This document shows positions 20,229-22,789 of a stretch of DNA of 64,000 nt, one piece after another. The notes under the pieces are model-generated. The model did not search any database, was not told where the DNA came from, and saw only the letters and a program-made list of their open reading frames with translations. Positions within the stretch are counted from its first letter, which is position 1. Each line of letters begins with the position of its first letter. The stretch lies in the NCBI GenBank assembly GCA_038851755.1, contig JAWCKR010000002.1, positions 1 through 64,000 on the forward strand, written 5' to 3'. This stretch comes from Candidatus Hadarchaeales archaeon (GTDB lineage Archaea > Hadarchaeota > Hadarchaeia > Hadarchaeales > WYZ-LMO6). The position numbers and the translations under genes were made by a program.

Positions 20229-20525
20229 TCAGCTCTTTCCGAGAACTATTTCGATGGTAGATACATTGATTTTTTCGCCGCCTTCTGTCTGGAGTTCTTC
20301 CGTGCCGATGGTTATGTTTTTGGGGACCAGTCCCTGTATGAAACGGTTCCTGAGGATTTCCGCCACATCCACGGCCCTGCTTATCGCCTTTCCCCTGGCT
20401 TTGAGTACCACTTCGTTGCCCCCTTGGTTGAACTGCGTGATGGCTGCCAGCACGTAGTTCATCACGGGTTTGGTCCCCACGAACACGGCGTTATCAGCGG
20501 CGCTTTTCTTTGGGTTTTCTGCCAT
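20229..20525 (-). CDS. albA: Chromatin protein Alba
   Basis: [36 protein letters not shown]. Confidence 0.97.
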
Positions 20526-20564: not shown

Positions 20565-20972
20565 TTAAATACTTTTCCCCTCCCTTCTCAGGGCTAGGAG
20601 CATCCTCCTCTGCAGGTTCTCCTGCACTTCTTGTGCAGTCTTCTTTCCCTTTCGCATGTCTAGGTAATCCGCCAGGTCTTCCAGCACCAGTTGCGCGATT
20701 TCCTCCTCCAGCAGCCCTAGGTAGAGGGCCAGTTCCAGCGTATAGAAAGCCCGCATCAGGCTTTCCTTCCCTCTCTTCCACCTTTTCCAGACCCCCGATC
20801 TCCCCATTCCCATTTTTTTGGCTATTCCCTCGAAGCTTCGAGCCCTTTCTGAGTAGTACAGGAGGAGAATTTGAAGGGTTTTTTCGTCAAATAAGGATTT
20901 TTTTAGGAGTATTTTTGCTAGGGGACTGTTTTTTACTTCTTTTATTCCGTAATCGCTTTTTTTCTTGGTCAT
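20565..20972 (-). CDS. Hypothetical helix-turn-helix protein
   Basis: SFEGIAKKMGMGRSGVWKRW HTH-like segment; AT-rich 5' half; directly upstream of alba. Confidence 0.65.
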   Translation of the reverse strand: MTKKKSDYGIKEVKNSPLAKILLKKSLFDEKTLQILLLYYSERARSFEGIAKKMGMGRSGVWKRWKRGKESLMRAFYTLELALYLGLLEEEIAQLVLEDLADYLDMRKGKKTAQEVQENLQRRMLLALRREGKSI

Positions 20973-21133
20973 TTTCCCCCTGAAAAAGATTCTTCCTTCC
21001 ACCTAATAATGTTTCCATTATGAGGAAACAAGCGCGCGTGAGGGAAAGAAGGATGGAGCTTTGGATGCGTACTGGGTGCCCTCTTTCCCCCGCAGATTCT
21101 TGCCCCAAGGGGATCCGGGCAAAGCTTTTTAAT

Positions 21134-21255
21134 GTAGGCCACAAGCCTACTCTTGTAGGAAAAAAGCCTACGCAGTAGGACGGGGGCCTACATGGCGTGG
21201 GAAAAAAGCCTACGAGGTGTAGGCTTTCGTCCCTCGGCGTAGGCCGGAGGCCATC
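21134..21255. repeat. Array of six 17-bp palindromic sites GTAGG-N7-CCTAC with 20-22-bp period
   Basis: Starts at 21134, 21155, 21175 (perfect), 21197 (GTGGG..CCTAC), 21219 (GTAGG..CCCTC) and 21239 (GTAGG..CCATC). The array lies between a TATA-like TTTTTAAT (21126-21133) and the GTG start at 21258. Confidence 0.9.
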
Positions 21256-21257
21256 AC

Positions 21258-21827
21258 GTGAAAATCGCCGGGTTCTTCCCCTCCGAGATGCGGGTGGAGA
21301 TGGTGCGGGAAATGGTGGAGAAGATGGGGATTCGCCCGGTTTCCAATTCTATAGGTGTGAACTCCAAGACCGTCTACAAGTACAAGCTAGGGGAGGCAGT
21401 CCCCAGAGATGAAACTCTTGTCAGGCTCCTCGAGGTTTTGAGAGAGAGGGACCCGGGCACTTTCTGGATGTACGTGGAGAAACTCCAGAAGGGGTTCGAA
21501 GAGGCTCTTTCTTCCTTGAGGGGTGGAGAAGAACCCAGAGCCCCTCAGGGAGAGACCCCACCCCCCCTCCTGGAGGAAGGTGCGGAGATTTCCAGGTTCG
21601 AGGTCTACGAGAGGCTGGGGATAGAGAACCCGTCCGAGCGTGTGAGGCTGGCCAGGATTCTCTCCTTCTTGGCCACATGTAACGAATTCAGGGAGGAGGA
21701 GCTGGAAGAGAGGGTGATGCTCCCTGCGGAGGAAGTGGAGGACTACCTCAAGAAGCTGGCGCAGCACGGAATTTTGGAGAGGGCTAAAAGCGGGATTTAT
21801 CGGGTGAAGATCAAATGCAGACTGTGA
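21258..21827 (+). CDS. Two-domain DNA-binding protein (N-terminal Xre-like HTH, C-terminal winged helix)
   Basis: IRPVSNSIGVNSKTVYKYKLGEAVPRDE; Pro-rich linker; EELEERVMLPAEEVEDYLKKLAQHGILERAKSGIYRV. Confidence 0.75.
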   Translation: MKIAGFFPSEMRVEMVREMVEKMGIRPVSNSIGVNSKTVYKYKLGEAVPRDETLVRLLEVLRERDPGTFWMYVEKLQKGFEEALSSLRGGEEPRAPQGETPPPLLEEGAEISRFEVYERLGIENPSERVRLARILSFLATCNEFREEELEERVMLPAEEVEDYLKKLAQHGILERAKSGIYRVKIKCRL

Positions 21828-22789
21828 GGGAAGAGCAGGCTGAGCTGAGAGGCTTCGGAATGGACTCCTTCGAGCGCAAGAAAGCCTCCTTCTTCAGGAG
21901 GTGGGGCTGGAGGTTTCTCCCGTTTGCACAGACGGACCCCCTCCCCCATCCCAAGCTCATGGTGCCGCACCAGAAGGAGGAAGTGGTGAAGCTGGTGGAC
22001 CTCATAAGGGAAGGAGACCTCGTGACTTTCGTGGTCTCAGATCTGGGGATGGGAAAAACCACTCTCTGCAAATACCTGTCGGAGGTTCTTCCCCTTCAGG
22101 ACCCACAGCTTCTAACGGTTTTCGTCCCGGCTCAGTCCGTTCAAACCCCGGAGCAGATGCTGCGCATCCTCCTGAACAGGCTGGAGATAGAGGCGGGAGG
22201 CGACCTCACCGAGGAGTTCGAGAAGTTCTACCGGTGGCATCAGGCCTATCCCGAATCCAAGTTGGTCGTTTTCGTGGACGAGTTCCCGGAGCTGGATGTG
22301 AAGGTGGCGGAGATGATAAGGGCGTTGGCAGACCTGAAGAACATCACTTGGGTTTTGAACGGGAGGAAGGACCAGATTCTGGACTATCTGCAGGAGCACG
22401 TGCCATCTCTCCTCAGCAGGAAGAGGTACATGATGGAGATGAAACCTCTTTCCCTGGAGGAGGTGCGCGAACTGCTCCTCCTCCGCATGGCTTGGGCGAG
22501 GGGGGAAGTCAACCCGAGGGGCGACTCCCTCCTTCCCTTCACCCCTTCCAGTCTCAGGAGGATCCACAGGCTTTCCGGGGGAATCCCCCGCGAGGTTCTC
22601 AAGCTGGCGAGCGATGCGGTTTACTCGGCCATAGAGAAAAACGCCACCAGGATTCAGGCTTCTCTCGTGGGGGAGAGGAAGAAAAGGAGTCCTAGGAAGA
22701 AAGCGAAGCGTAAGCCCAGGCCGAGGCGCAGGCGCGTCAGGAAGAGGAGGAAGAAGGCCAAGAGAAGGTTCAGCTTTTTTGGGAGGTAG
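21815..22789 (+). CDS. ExeA/AAA_22-like AAA+ ATPase with a very basic C-terminal tail
   Basis: Walker A SDLGMGKTT, Walker B VVFVDE, lid IHRLSGGIPREV; tail RKKRSPRKKAKRKPRPRRRRVRKRRKKAKRRFSFFGR. Confidence 0.85.
   Translation: MQTVREEQAELRGFGMDSFERKKASFFRRWGWRFLPFAQTDPLPHPKLMVPHQKEEVVKLVDLIREGDLVTFVVSDLGMGKTTLCKYLSEVLPLQDPQLLTVFVPAQSVQTPEQMLRILLNRLEIEAGGDLTEEFEKFYRWHQAYPESKLVVFVDEFPELDVKVAEMIRALADLKNITWVLNGRKDQILDYLQEHVPSLLSRKRYMMEMKPLSLEEVRELLLLRMAWARGEVNPRGDSLLPFTPSSLRRIHRLSGGIPREVLKLASDAVYSAIEKNATRIQASLVGERKKRSPRKKAKRKPRPRRRRVRKRRKKAKRRFSFFGR

What the first reader, a model, noticed from the sequence alone, without database searches (positions are those of the whole stretch)
21134..21255. 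Six palindromes GTAGG-N7-CCTAC phased at two helical turns: an iteron- or centromere-like array
Seen: site starts at 21134, 21155, 21175, 21197, 21219 and 21239 (spacings 21, 20, 22, 22, 20; mean 21 bp). The 7-bp spacer length is invariant while its sequence varies (twice AAAAAAG), and match quality declines toward the gene. The array fills the whole space between a TATA-like box and the start codon. Established: such phasing puts dimers on one DNA face, as in plasmid centromeres, iterons and cooperative operators. Inference: a nucleation site for a cooperative nucleoprotein filament of the downstream HTH-wHTH protein, more elaborate than simple autoregulation needs.
Basis: partly seen in the sequence, partly recalled or inferred. 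Interest (0 to 1): 0.8.

Follow-up and report, generated by a model that had tools for sequence, protein, structure and literature searches.

The report
Phased operator array before an archaeal regulator
Six evenly spaced palindromic DNA sites sit between the promoter and start codon of an uncharacterised regulator gene in a hot-spring archaeon; they are real, conserved in relatives, and most likely let the regulator switch off its own operon.

Summary
The array is real. Three exact, one 1-mismatch and two 2-mismatch copies of GTAGG-N7-CCTAC lie at 21134-21255, spaced 20-22 bp. They fill the gap between a BRE/TATA-like box and the GTG start at 21258. It is the only such cluster in the 1.25-Mb Hadarchaeota assembly.

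All 39 distinct upstream regions of orthologs carry related 17-bp palindromes. More distant relatives have only two sites, placed directly after the TATA box. This genus has expanded them to 6-7. Half-sites are conserved while spacers and linkers drift, and the arm mismatches do not fit RNA stems.

The downstream protein has an Xre-like N-terminal HTH and a C-terminal winged helix. Its gene overlaps that of an ORC/Cdc6-like AAA+ ATPase lacking a winged-helix domain.

Best reading (about 0.6): a cooperative, one-face autorepression operator for this operon.

An origin or iteron reading is not supported. Canonical orc1/cdc6 genes lie elsewhere, there is no GC-skew turn at the locus, and the repeats are inverted, not direct.

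A centromere-like or ATPase-loading role is not excluded. No binding, transcript or protein-complex data could be obtained.

The parts
20565..20972 (-). Divergent gene for a 135-aa small HTH protein (weak Sigma70_r4 / YlxM-UPF0122 likeness) with an invariant RSGxWKR helix. Likely binder of palindrome P2 (inferred).
   Evidence: ORF. Pfam Sigma70_r4 E 0.0037, below cut-off. Profile against PDB hits 1s7o, E 0.006. Alignment of 8 orthologs. Divergent position conserved.
21002..21009 (-). TATA-like box (CCTAATAA on the + strand) for the divergent gene, abutting P2.
   Evidence: Read. An A/T box sits in the same place in every locus that reaches this far. Assignment inferred, no transcript data.
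21010..21030 (.). Palindrome P2, TGTTTCC-N7-GGAAACA. A second operator-like element with identical half-sites across all families seen.
   Evidence: The only GTTTCC-N7-GGAAAC in the assembly; 2 other hits have N5 spacing.
21120..21133 (+). BRE/TATA-like box CAAAGC-TTTTTAAT for the downstream operon, directly abutting site 1.
   Evidence: By a strict rule, an A/T-rich box abuts a site in 26 of 39 upstream regions. The misses include 6-of-8 A/T boxes such as GGTTTAAAT. The neighbouring Alba gene has a similar AAAGTATTTAAC box. Inferred, no TSS data.
21134..21150 (.). Site 1, GTAGGC-CACAA-GCCTAC (exact). Lies between the TATA box and the expected transcription start.
21155..21171 (.). Site 2, GTAGGA-AAAAA-GCCTAC (exact for the 10-position motif). 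The A-tract spacer is conserved in the genus.
21175..21191 (.). Site 3, GTAGGA-CGGGG-GCCTAC (exact for the 10-position motif).
   Evidence: A strain variant has GTCTAC in the right arm.
21197..21213 (.). Site 4, GTGGGA-AAAAA-GCCTAC (1 mismatch).
   Evidence: A weaker or variant site at this slot in orthologs.
21219..21235 (.). Site 5, GTAGGC-TTTCG-TCCCTC (2 mismatches). The only site with a T-rich spacer on the + strand.
   Evidence: A perfect palindrome at the same slot in L006, L008 and L056.
21239..21255 (.). Site 6, GTAGGC-CGGAG-GCCATC (2 mismatches). A conserved variant whose spacer holds the Shine-Dalgarno-like GGAGG (21246-21250).
   Evidence: GTAGGC-N5-GCC(A/G)(T/A)C is the last site before the start codon in f1 and in the 36-39% identity relatives.
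21258..21827 (+). Gene for a 189-aa protein: Xre-like five-helix HTH domain (1-88), disordered linker (90-104), winged helix (110-188). Proposed binder of the array.
   Evidence: The GTG start is confirmed by ATG in orthologs and by a G>A variant at 21258.
21815..22789 (+). Gene for a 324-aa ORC/Cdc6-like AAA+ ATPase with no winged-helix domain, a K/R-rich tail and a conserved C-terminal F-x-F-F motif. It overlaps the upstream gene by 13 nt.
   Evidence: The overlap or abutment is conserved in orthologs.

Best explanation
The array is a cooperative multi-operator that controls the operon just downstream. That operon encodes an Xre-HTH/winged-helix protein followed by an ORC-like AAA+ ATPase.

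Proposed mechanism (inferred):
- Dimers of the 189-aa protein, probably through its conserved N-terminal HTH, bind each 17-bp palindrome GTAGGC-N5-GCCTAC.
- The 21-bp spacing (two helical turns) puts all six dimers on one face of the DNA, so neighbours can touch and binding is cooperative.
- Site 1 lies between the TATA box and the expected transcription start. Sites 2-6 cover the start region and leader, and the last site covers the ribosome-binding site.
- A filled array would therefore block RNA-polymerase recruitment or passage, shutting the operon off once its product has accumulated.

Shown: the sites, their phasing, their uniqueness in the genome, their conservation and clade-specific change, and their position relative to the TATA-like box, the SD and the start codon.

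Inferred: which protein binds, the cooperativity, and repression rather than activation.

The ancestral design has two operators after the TATA box. This genus multiplied them to 6-7, which would sharpen the switch.
For: (1) The sites are real and non-random.

(2) This is a single-locus motif. At <=1 mismatch over 12 positions, 3 of 3 copies in the assembly are in the array. In relatives, exact copies genome-wide lie at the orthologous array in 3 of 3 (G003), 1 of 1 (G002) and 2 of 3 (G005) cases.

(3) All 39 distinct ortholog upstream regions have at least 1 site and 38 have at least 2, against 0.05 per shuffled region. 52 of 88 intervals are 20-22 bp. 9 are 42-45 bp and 4 are 61-63 bp, which are multiples of 21.

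(4) In 7 genus loci, invariant columns number 53/72 for half-sites, 10/30 for spacers and 4/22 for linkers.

(5) The layout is that of archaeal repression. A TATA-like box abuts a site (26 of 39 by a strict rule). Relatives at 36-39% identity show TATA, site, 4-5 nt, site, SD, ATG.

(6) Proteins with the helix NSKTVYKYK (22 loci) go with GTAGGC half-sites. Those with NPKSVYKYK (11 loci) go with GT(A/T)G(T/A)C.

(7) The N-terminal domain is Xre/controller-protein-like: VIA Z 7.7 to 3eus and 7.3 to C.EcoT38IS, Atlas leads at 0.89, and HTH_3 in 3 of 12 family members.

(8) Known precedents exist. Ss-LrpB binds three regularly spaced 15-bp palindromes in its own operator (PMC1802622, passage read). 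[quoted passage not shown]
Against: - There is no binding, footprint or transcript-start evidence. No RNA run was usable.
- The TATA and TSS assignments are by sequence only. If they are right, this genus has an unusually long leader of about 100 nt full of palindromes.
- Six to seven sites are more than repression needs, since relatives manage with two.
- The helix/half-site correlation rests on a single split in the tree, so it counts as one evolutionary event.
- The HTH_3 match of the window protein is below Pfam's cut-off (15.7 against 23 bits).
- The winged helix has an acidic recognition helix, so its role is unclear.
- In some relatives sites also lie upstream of the TATA box (G001/L059 has 3 distal sites; f4 has 1-2), which could mean activation.
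- The divergent small HTH protein could be the binder instead.
Confidence: 0.6

Rival explanations
1. Loading or nucleation platform. The array is, besides or instead of an operator, the unique chromosomal site where the HTH/winged-helix protein forms a one-face filament. That filament recruits the co-translated ORC/Cdc6-like AAA+ ATPase onto DNA. This would be a centromere-like, chromatin-organising or non-canonical initiator site.
For: - The motif is unique to this locus in each genome checked.
- There are 6-7 phased sites where 2 suffice in relatives.
- The genes overlap by 13 nt, and overlap or abutment is conserved.
- The closest structures to the ATPase are DNA-bound initiators and loaders: A. 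pernix ORC2 at 1.3e-10, S. solfataricus Cdc6-1 at 9e-10, then MuB and TnsC filaments (profile hit 2qby_A at 2.1e-7).
- The ATPase lacks its own winged helix, and in this family it has a K/R-rich tail.
- The three-gene module is a syntenic chromosomal core next to Alba and AspRS.
- Archaeal centromere-like sites also lie upstream of their own operons and double as possible regulatory sites (SegB S1/S2 and the AspA 23-bp site; PMC8682754 and PMC5120986, passages read).
Against: - No known partition system uses an AAA+ partner.
- The K/R tail is absent or acidic in family f4.
- The ancestral two-site layout needs no such role.
- No interaction data exist; the complex prediction could not be run.
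Confidence: 0.17
2. The array is an operator, but it is bound by another protein: the divergently encoded small HTH protein or an unlinked factor. The downstream product would then bind P2 or nothing here.
For: - Two HTH genes flank the region and two palindrome types lie in it.
- Assigning each protein to a palindrome rests on conservation patterns only.
Against: - The small protein's recognition helix is invariant across families, as P2 is, whereas the array half-site changes.
- The array abuts the promoter and start of the downstream gene, not those of the divergent gene.
Confidence: 0.12
3. RNA leader. The palindromes act as hairpins in the 5' untranslated region, affecting mRNA stability or occluding the ribosome-binding site, rather than as DNA sites.
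For: - The region folds far better than shuffles: -69.7 kcal/mol, z -7.1 on the + strand.
- If the TATA assignment is right, sites 2-6 are transcribed.
- The SD lies inside site 6.
Against: - The minus strand folds almost as well (z -6.3), as any palindrome array would.
- Of 528 arm pairs in 88 distinct sites, 103 cannot pair on either strand, against 17 G-U and 10 A-C. The conserved asymmetries, such as right arms GACAAC and GCCATC, break stems.
- Sites also lie upstream of the TATA-like box in several relatives.
- There is no Rfam match.
Confidence: 0.06
4. Replication origin or iteron array used by the neighbouring ORC-like ATPase.
For: - There is an ORC/Cdc6-like AAA+ gene next door.
- The repeat cluster is unique in the genome.
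- A 160-bp stretch of 25-37% GC lies at 20860-21020.
- Archaea can have extra origins with their own initiator (WhiP/oriC3; PMC3607249, search listing only).
Against: - Two canonical Orc1/Cdc6 genes above the family cut-off lie on other contigs.
- The neighbouring ATPase scores 15.2 bits against a cut-off of 181.3.
- There is no GC-skew turn at 21 kb.
- In a 440-kb contig of a congener the cumulative skew minimum is at about 340-360 kb. That is nearer the canonical orc1 gene (318 kb) than the array (267.5 kb).
- The repeats are inverted, not direct.
- The AT-rich stretch is mostly the coding start of the divergent gene.
- The array itself is 43-65% GC.
Confidence: 0.03

Closest known systems
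Ss-LrpB autoregulatory operator of Sulfolobus solfataricus (three regularly spaced 15-bp palindromic boxes, cooperative binding)
   Same: [quoted passage not shown] Each palindrome has conserved half-sites and a 5-bp central spacer (PMC1802622, passage read).
   Different: - The protein family differs: Lrp/AsnC with a RAM domain against an Xre-like HTH plus winged helix.
- There are three sites against six, and the half-site sequence is different.
- The sites here lie downstream of the TATA-like box and reach the start codon.
Controller (C) proteins of restriction-modification systems with adjacent OL/OR operators
   Same: - An Xre-type HTH dimer binds adjacent palindromic operators before its own gene.
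- A second dimer bound next to the first switches the genes off (PMC2504287 and PMC1885659, abstract starts in the search listing).
- The N-terminal domain aligns to C.EcoT38IS at Z 7.3 over residues 8-81.
- The two-site layout of the more distant relatives matches.
   Different: - C proteins are bacterial, have a single domain, have two operators, and are linked to an endonuclease gene.
- Here the setting is an archaeal promoter, with an extra winged-helix domain, an ORC-like ATPase as the co-transcribed gene, and expansion to 6-7 sites.
- A structural Z of 7-8 is in the range of common folds (note).
Archaeal centromere-like sites: SegB S1/S2 upstream of segAB, and the AspA 23-bp site of pNOB8
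   Same: - Palindromic sites lie upstream of the operon that encodes the binding protein and an NTPase.
- Multiple dimers assemble into extended or superhelical complexes, and gene overlaps occur.
- The authors note such sites may also be regulatory (PMC8682754 and PMC5120986, passages read).
   Different: - The partner NTPase there is a ParA Walker ATPase; here it is an ORC-like AAA+.
- SegB is ribbon-helix-helix and AspA is a PadR-like wHTH that spreads from one site. Here there are six discrete phased sites.
- AspA appears only among generic wHTH matches, at Foldseek E 0.2.
Archaeal Orc1/Cdc6 initiators at ORB-containing origins
   Same: The neighbouring ATPase has the Orc1/Cdc6 AAA+ fold, and a sequence-specific winged-helix-bearing protein is encoded beside a unique repeat cluster.
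   Different: - There is no C-terminal WH on the ATPase, and its score is far below the family cut-off.
- The canonical orc1/cdc6 genes lie elsewhere.
- No AT-rich unwinding element is flanked by the repeats. That origin layout was read only from the abstract start in the search listing for PMC4010727.
- There is no GC-skew turn.

Membership tests
Autoregulatory multi-operator of an HTH regulator | Palindromic sites in the control region of the regulator's own gene, overlapping core promoter elements | tested here: met
   The array abuts a BRE/TATA-like box and runs to 2 nt before the start codon. The same layout is seen in relatives. The promoter is assigned by sequence only.
Autoregulatory multi-operator of an HTH regulator | Sites conserved with the gene, and changing with the regulator's DNA-reading helix | tested here: met
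   39 of 39 upstream regions carry sites. Half-sites have 53/72 invariant columns against 10/30 for spacers. Helix type tracks half-site type in 33 loci, but this is one split on the tree.
Autoregulatory multi-operator of an HTH regulator | Binding by the gene's own product and a resulting change in transcription | not testable with these tools
   Needs EMSA or footprinting and in vitro transcription.
Partition centromere (parC/parS, SegB or AspA type) | Repeated binding sites upstream of an operon encoding the binding protein and an NTPase | tested here: met
   (met in form only).
Partition centromere (parC/parS, SegB or AspA type) | Partner NTPase of ParA (Walker), ParM (actin) or TubZ (tubulin) type | tested here: not met
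   The partner matches AAA_22. Its closest structures are ORC/Cdc6, MuB and TnsC. The classification by NTPase type comes from a PMC8682754 passage.
Partition centromere (parC/parS, SegB or AspA type) | Segregation function | not testable with these tools
   The lineage is uncultured, so no genetics is possible.
Iterons / archaeal oriC | Direct repeats (iterons), or ORB repeats flanking an AT-rich unwinding element | tested here: not met
   The repeats are palindromes with alternating half-site orientation. The array is 43-65% GC. The only AT-rich stretch, 20860-21020, is mostly coding sequence.
Iterons / archaeal oriC | Adjacent canonical orc1/cdc6 gene | tested here: not met
   TIGR02928 matches above the cut-off occur only at C17:26742-27833 and C15:31440-32501. 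The neighbouring ATPase scores 15.2 bits against a cut-off of 181.3.
Iterons / archaeal oriC | Strand-composition turn or coverage peak at the site | tested here: not met
   No GC-skew turn at the locus. In G002:C2 the skew minimum is at about 340-360 kb while the locus is at 267.5 kb. The skew is weak and follows gene orientation. Coverage could not be tested because only contigs were available.
Orc1/Cdc6 family (for the neighbouring ATPase) | AAA+ module of the initiator type | tested here: met
   Top Foldseek hits are 1w5t_A at 1.3e-10, 2qby_A at 9e-10 and 1fnn_A at 5e-9, with TM about 0.55. The profile hit to 2qby_A is 2.1e-7.
Orc1/Cdc6 family (for the neighbouring ATPase) | C-terminal winged-helix DNA-binding domain and a family-level score | tested here: not met
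   The model ends with the lid domain at about residue 275, followed by a disordered tail. TIGR02928 gives 15.2 bits against a cut-off of 181.3.
Xre / HTH_3 family (N-terminal domain of the 189-aa protein) | Five-helix Xre/cro-type HTH recognised by the family model | tested here: inconclusive
   HTH_3 scores E 0.016 and 15.7 bits against a cut-off of 23. 3 of 12 family members reach <=0.01. VIA gives Z 7.7 (3eus) and 7.3 (2ef8) over residues 6-81. Atlas leads score 0.89.
Structured RNA leader / known RNA family | Pairing kept by compensatory or wobble changes on the transcribed strand; a match to a curated model | tested here: not met
   103 of 528 arm pairs are non-pairable, against 17 G-U and 10 A-C. 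No Rfam hit falls in the array, and the only row is an unrelated pRNA match at 20306-20400 with E 0.13. Both strands fold equally well.

The most novel reading that the evidence does not exclude
The array is the single chromosomal docking site of a two-part, ORC-like machine found so far only in Hadarchaeota. An Xre-HTH/winged-helix adaptor coats one face of 120 bp of DNA and loads a winged-helix-less Orc1/Cdc6-type AAA+ ATPase there. The site would then act as a centromere-like, chromatin-organising or non-canonical initiation site, with autoregulation as a by-product.
Probability: 0.12. Interest if true: 0.85.

Novelty: new variant of a known kind. Interest (0 to 1): 0.45.

Why it matters
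Hadarchaeota have no cultured member and no characterised transcription factor. This locus offers a complete, testable cis/trans pair:
- a defined 17-bp operator;
- a natural series of 2 to 7 copies across relatives;
- a dedicated regulator apparently with a single-locus regulon;
- a second, invariant palindrome with its own candidate binder.

It is a clean system for studying how operator multiplication tunes cooperativity at an archaeal promoter.

The co-transcribed ORC/Cdc6-like ATPase without a winged helix is found in every f1 genome searched (5 of 5) and in 7 of 9 f4 genomes. Its function is unknown. Finding out what the array-bound protein does to it could reveal a new use of the initiator-type AAA+ fold.

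Tried and rejected
- **Protein-protein prediction not run.** The job (ATPase plus HTH/wH protein) was never accepted.
- **No RNA evidence.** No RNA holder was listed for the locus. The four runs laid were contigs only, so no transcript start, strand or level could be read. Two runs labelled metatranscriptomic bridge the intergenic region and are probably DNA or mixed.
- **Rfam:** nothing in the array.
- **PADLOC:** only weak HTH-level rows (RmrA at 1e-4, PDC-S27 at 2e-3), so no defence system was recognised.
- **Fold searches of the 189-aa model.** Foldseek against PDB gave only generic wHTH rows at E 0.07-0.2. The VIA wide search gave common winged-helix and Xre folds at Z 7-9.
- **ORB-like repeats near the canonical orc1/cdc6 genes:** nothing clear apart from a tandem 14-mer near the C15 gene.
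- **Earlier notes of this scan:** none on this locus or protein. The genome-wide notes concern other loci.
- **Literature.** 'Hadarchaeota' plus 'transcriptional regulator' gave 8 papers (7 listed), none relevant by title or abstract start. 'Hadesarchaea' plus 'palindromic' gave 2 papers, neither relevant by title or abstract start. I found no description of this array or protein family in print. Supplements were not examined.
- **Rejected ideas.** A CRISPR-like array, because the repeats are 17 bp with 3-5 bp between them. A mobile element, because synteny with AspRS, Alba and PHP is conserved across the order.
- **Loci dropped before the counts.** L069 and L086 had too little upstream DNA, and six were exact duplicates. 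Several retained regions are near-identical pairs (L008/L058, L021/L059), so the 39 are not independent.
Full report
**What is there**

The window is part of contig C2 of a 1.25-Mb, 62% GC, 26-contig assembly. It belongs to an uncultured Hadarchaeota/Hadarchaeales archaeon, judged from record titles and source names of near relatives.

Between 21134 and 21255 lie six 17-bp sites of the form GTAGG-N7-CCTAC:
- exact at 21134, 21155 and 21175 (3 found, 0.03 expected, 0 of 100 shuffles reach 3);
- one mismatch at 21197;
- two mismatches at 21219 and 21239.

Two-mismatch copies alone are at chance level in the window (29 seen, 30.3 expected), so the last two sites stand only on context. Across the assembly the rate of sites with up to 2 mismatches is 6.2e-4 per bp. 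Six within 110 bp compares with at most 3 elsewhere, and two such sites falling within 1 bp of the phased slots has a probability near 3e-6.

The motif is better written GTAGGC-N5-GCCTAC. At up to 1 mismatch over those 12 positions the whole assembly holds 3 copies, all in the array. Nine half-sites fall within 130 bp here, against at most 4 anywhere else.

Centre-to-centre spacings are 21, 20, 22, 22, 20. Phase coherence for a 10.5-bp helical repeat is R = 0.94, which 0.05% of random six-phase sets reach.

**Context on the DNA**

Directly 5' of site 1 lies CAAAGC-TTTTTAAT (21120-21133). This is a BRE/TATA-like box similar to the one I read before the neighbouring Alba gene. Site 6 ends 2 nt before the GTG at 21258, and its spacer holds GGAGG (21246-21250), 7 nt from the start.

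The GTG is the true start. Orthologs begin with ATG at the same codon, and a 97-99% identical population variant carries G>A at 21258.

With a TATA centre near 21130, the transcription start is expected near 21155 (inference from the usual archaeal spacing, recalled and not tested). Site 1 would then sit between TATA and start, and sites 2-6 in a leader of about 100 nt.

A second palindrome, TGTTTCC-N7-GGAAACA (P2, 21010-21030), abuts the TATA-like box of the divergently transcribed gene 20565-20972. It is the only copy with that spacing in the assembly.

**The genes**

*The 189-aa product of 21258-21827.* It has weak HTH_3 and several winged-helix Pfam matches. DnaD_N at 2.4e-6 is just above its cut-off.

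An AlphaFold model (pLDDT 81) shows three parts:
- a five-helix N-domain (residues 1-88);
- a disordered linker (90-104);
- a winged helix (110-188).

The C-domain aligns to Fur, TFE-alpha and MarR winged helices (Z 7.5-9.1). The N-domain aligns to Xre-type proteins, including the controller protein C.EcoT38IS (Z 7.3-7.7). These Z values are in the range of common folds. Foldseek gave only generic wHTH rows. The Atlas gave XRE/CI-type leads at 0.89.

The family is very small. A profile search of 1.84 billion representatives found 25 clusters at E <= 1e-10. All named close relatives are 'hypothetical protein' from Hadarchaeales.

*The next gene, 21815-22789.* It overlaps the first by 13 nt and encodes an AAA_22 ATPase. 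Its profile best matches S. solfataricus Cdc6-1 (2.1e-7), then TnsC and A. pernix ORC2. Its model (pLDDT 82) is closest to archaeal and eukaryotic ORC/Cdc6, then to MuB, TnsC and RuvB.

It has no winged-helix domain. It ends in a disordered tail that is K/R-rich in this family, plus a conserved F-x-F-F/L motif. It scores far below the Orc1/Cdc6 family cut-off (15.2 against 181.3 bits). Public sources call it ExeA-like or 'ATP-binding protein'.

*The divergent 135-aa protein.* It has a sigma-70 region-4/YlxM-like HTH.

**Comparative evidence**

Orthologs of the 189-aa protein occur in 16 of 41 related genomes by single-sequence search (f1 5/5, f3 1/1, f4 7/9, f2 2/22, f5 0/3). By profile they occur in 16 of 66 genomes of the phylum (f2 2/46).

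The gene order AspRS, (Alba), small divergent gene, HTH/wH gene, AAA+ gene, (PHP) is conserved across families. This is therefore a chromosomal core, not a mobile element.

I collected 14 upstream regions from genomes and 25 distinct ones from metagenome contigs. Two loci with too little upstream DNA and six exact duplicates were dropped, and some retained regions are near-identical pairs.

- All 39 carry related 17-bp palindromes and 38 carry at least two. Shuffled regions give 0.05 per region.
- Of 88 intervals, 52 are 20-22 bp, 9 are 42-45 bp and 4 are 61-63 bp, so the two-turn phase persists even across gaps. Family f4 uses 24-26 bp.
- In seven loci of the genus, invariant columns number 53 of 72 in half-sites, 10 of 30 in spacers and 4 of 22 in linkers.
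- Exact copies of the motif in three relatives' whole genomes lie at the orthologous array in 3 of 3, 1 of 1 and 2 of 3 cases.

**The key comparative result**

Relatives at 36-39% identity have only two sites, in a fixed layout: AAGTTTAAAT, site, 4-5 nt, site, AGAGG, about 10 nt, ATG. Family f4 has two sites after a TATA-like box plus one or two before it. G005 has one distal and three proximal sites. The window's genus has six, and one member (G001/L059) has three distal and four proximal sites with the TATA-like box in a 62-bp, in-phase gap.

The basic device is therefore a two-operator autoregulatory promoter, and the six-site array is a lineage-specific expansion of it. By a strict rule, a TATA-like box abuts a site in 26 of 39 regions. 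Most misses have slightly weaker boxes visible.

**DNA site or RNA hairpin?**

Both strands fold far better than shuffles (z -7.1 and -6.3), as any palindrome array must.

In 88 distinct sites, the 528 arm pairs break down as 398 Watson-Crick, 17 G-U, 10 A-C and 103 that cannot pair on either strand. The mismatches are conserved asymmetries such as right arms GACAAC or GCCATC. What is conserved is the half-site identity G1 T2 W3 G4 N5 C6, not pairing. Sites also occur upstream of the TATA-like box in several relatives. No Rfam family matches. This favours protein-DNA recognition. One caveat: my site finder allowed the asymmetric consensus forms.

**Who binds?**

This is inference only.

P2 is identical in all families, and the recognition helix of the small divergent protein (RSGxWKR) is invariant. 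I therefore pair those two.

The array half-site changes from GTAGGC (f1, f3 and the 36-39% group) to GT(A/T)G(T/A)C (f4). In parallel, the N-terminal HTH of the 189-aa protein changes from ...SN(S/A)IGVNSKTVYKYK... (22 loci) to ...AR(E/Q/K)(I/L)DVNPKSVYKYK... (11 loci). That is one split on the tree, so it is weak evidence.

The C-terminal winged helix is poorly conserved and its putative recognition helix is acidic. I therefore assign DNA reading to the N-domain. I suggest the winged helix makes dimer-dimer contacts or contacts the ATPase.

**Mechanism proposed**

Dimers bind each palindrome, with half-site centres one turn apart. The 21-bp period aligns six dimers (twelve half-sites, R = 0.93 at 10.5 bp) on one face, which allows neighbour contacts and cooperative filling. 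Occupancy of site 1 and the start region blocks polymerase recruitment. Downstream sites act as roadblocks and cover the ribosome-binding region on the DNA. The result is sharp negative feedback on the operon.

Close precedents are:
- Ss-LrpB, with three regularly spaced palindromes in its own operator (PMC1802622, passage read);
- the Xre-type controller proteins, in which a second adjacent dimer turns the genes off (PMC2504287, abstract start in the search listing).

**Origin or iterons**

This reading is not supported.
- Two canonical Orc1/Cdc6 genes lie on contigs C17 and C15.
- GC skew in the window and in the whole 119-kb contig tracks gene orientation and shows no turn at 21 kb.
- In the 440-kb contig of a congener, the cumulative skew minimum is at about 340-360 kb. 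The canonical orc1 gene is at 318 kb and the array at 267.5 kb.
- The repeats are inverted, not direct.
- The array is 43-65% GC.

**Centromere-like or loading platform**

This reading is not excluded. Points in its favour:
- the motif's uniqueness per genome;
- the excess of sites in this genus;
- the translationally coupled ORC-like ATPase that lacks its own DNA-reading domain;
- the precedent of SegB and AspA sites upstream of their own operons (PMC8682754 and PMC5120986, passages read).

Points against:
- no partition system is known with an AAA+ partner;
- the basic tail is not conserved in f4;
- the two-site ancestors need no such role.

The one computation that could have moved these odds, a controlled complex prediction, could not be run because the queue was full.

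**Verdict**

It is a new variant of a known kind: a cooperative autoregulatory operator array in a new protein family, in a phylum without any characterised regulator, coupled to an unusual ORC-like ATPase.

I found no description of it in print (searches; supplements not examined).

Noticed in passing
window 21010-21030: A second palindrome, TGTTTCC-N7-GGAAACA, abuts the TATA-like box of the divergent gene. Its half-sites are identical in every Hadarchaeota locus that reaches this far, and it is unique in the assembly at this spacing. The divergent 135-aa protein has an invariant RSGxWKR helix and is the obvious candidate binder.
   Followed up: partly
window 21815-22789: An ORC/Cdc6-fold AAA+ ATPase with no winged-helix domain. 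It has a conserved N-terminal F..RKK..FF..W.F.PF..DPLP.P motif and a conserved extreme C-terminal F-x-F-F/L motif. The tail between them is K/R-rich in this family but acidic or short in family f4. Public sources label it ExeA/GspA-like.
   Followed up: partly
L050 1172-1213 (G000:C15): Three tandem 14-mers (TTATAACC-TTTTGG type, also forming an 18-nt palindrome) lie about 290 bp beyond the 3' end of the second canonical orc1/cdc6 gene. This is possibly an origin-associated element.
   Followed up: no
window 20229-20525: The Alba gene shows roughly 8-40 times higher contig word depth than its neighbours in two runs labelled metatranscriptomic, but flat depth in a DNA run. This is consistent with high expression, or with reads from other organisms' Alba genes. 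Contig depth cannot decide.
   Followed up: no
L034 8790-8940 (G013, family f2), minus strand: Upstream of the distantly related HTH-plus-AAA+ gene pair of family f2 there is a different repeated motif (TTGTTAAC/TTGTTAA type, at least five copies). This suggests the multi-operator design persists with a changed half-site.
   Followed up: partly
window 21183, 21187, 21223, 21245, 21258: A 97-99% identical population variant in hot-spring contigs changes position 5 of two half-sites (GCCTAC to GTCTAC, and GTAGGC to GTAGTC) and two spacer bases. It also turns the GTG start into ATG. Position 5 is also the variable half-site position between clades.
   Followed up: partly
G001:C6 and G001:C2 (L021, L010): In one congener the ortholog is split across two contig ends, which is an assembly break inside the gene. 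Its upstream region has seven sites in two clusters of three and four.
   Followed up: no
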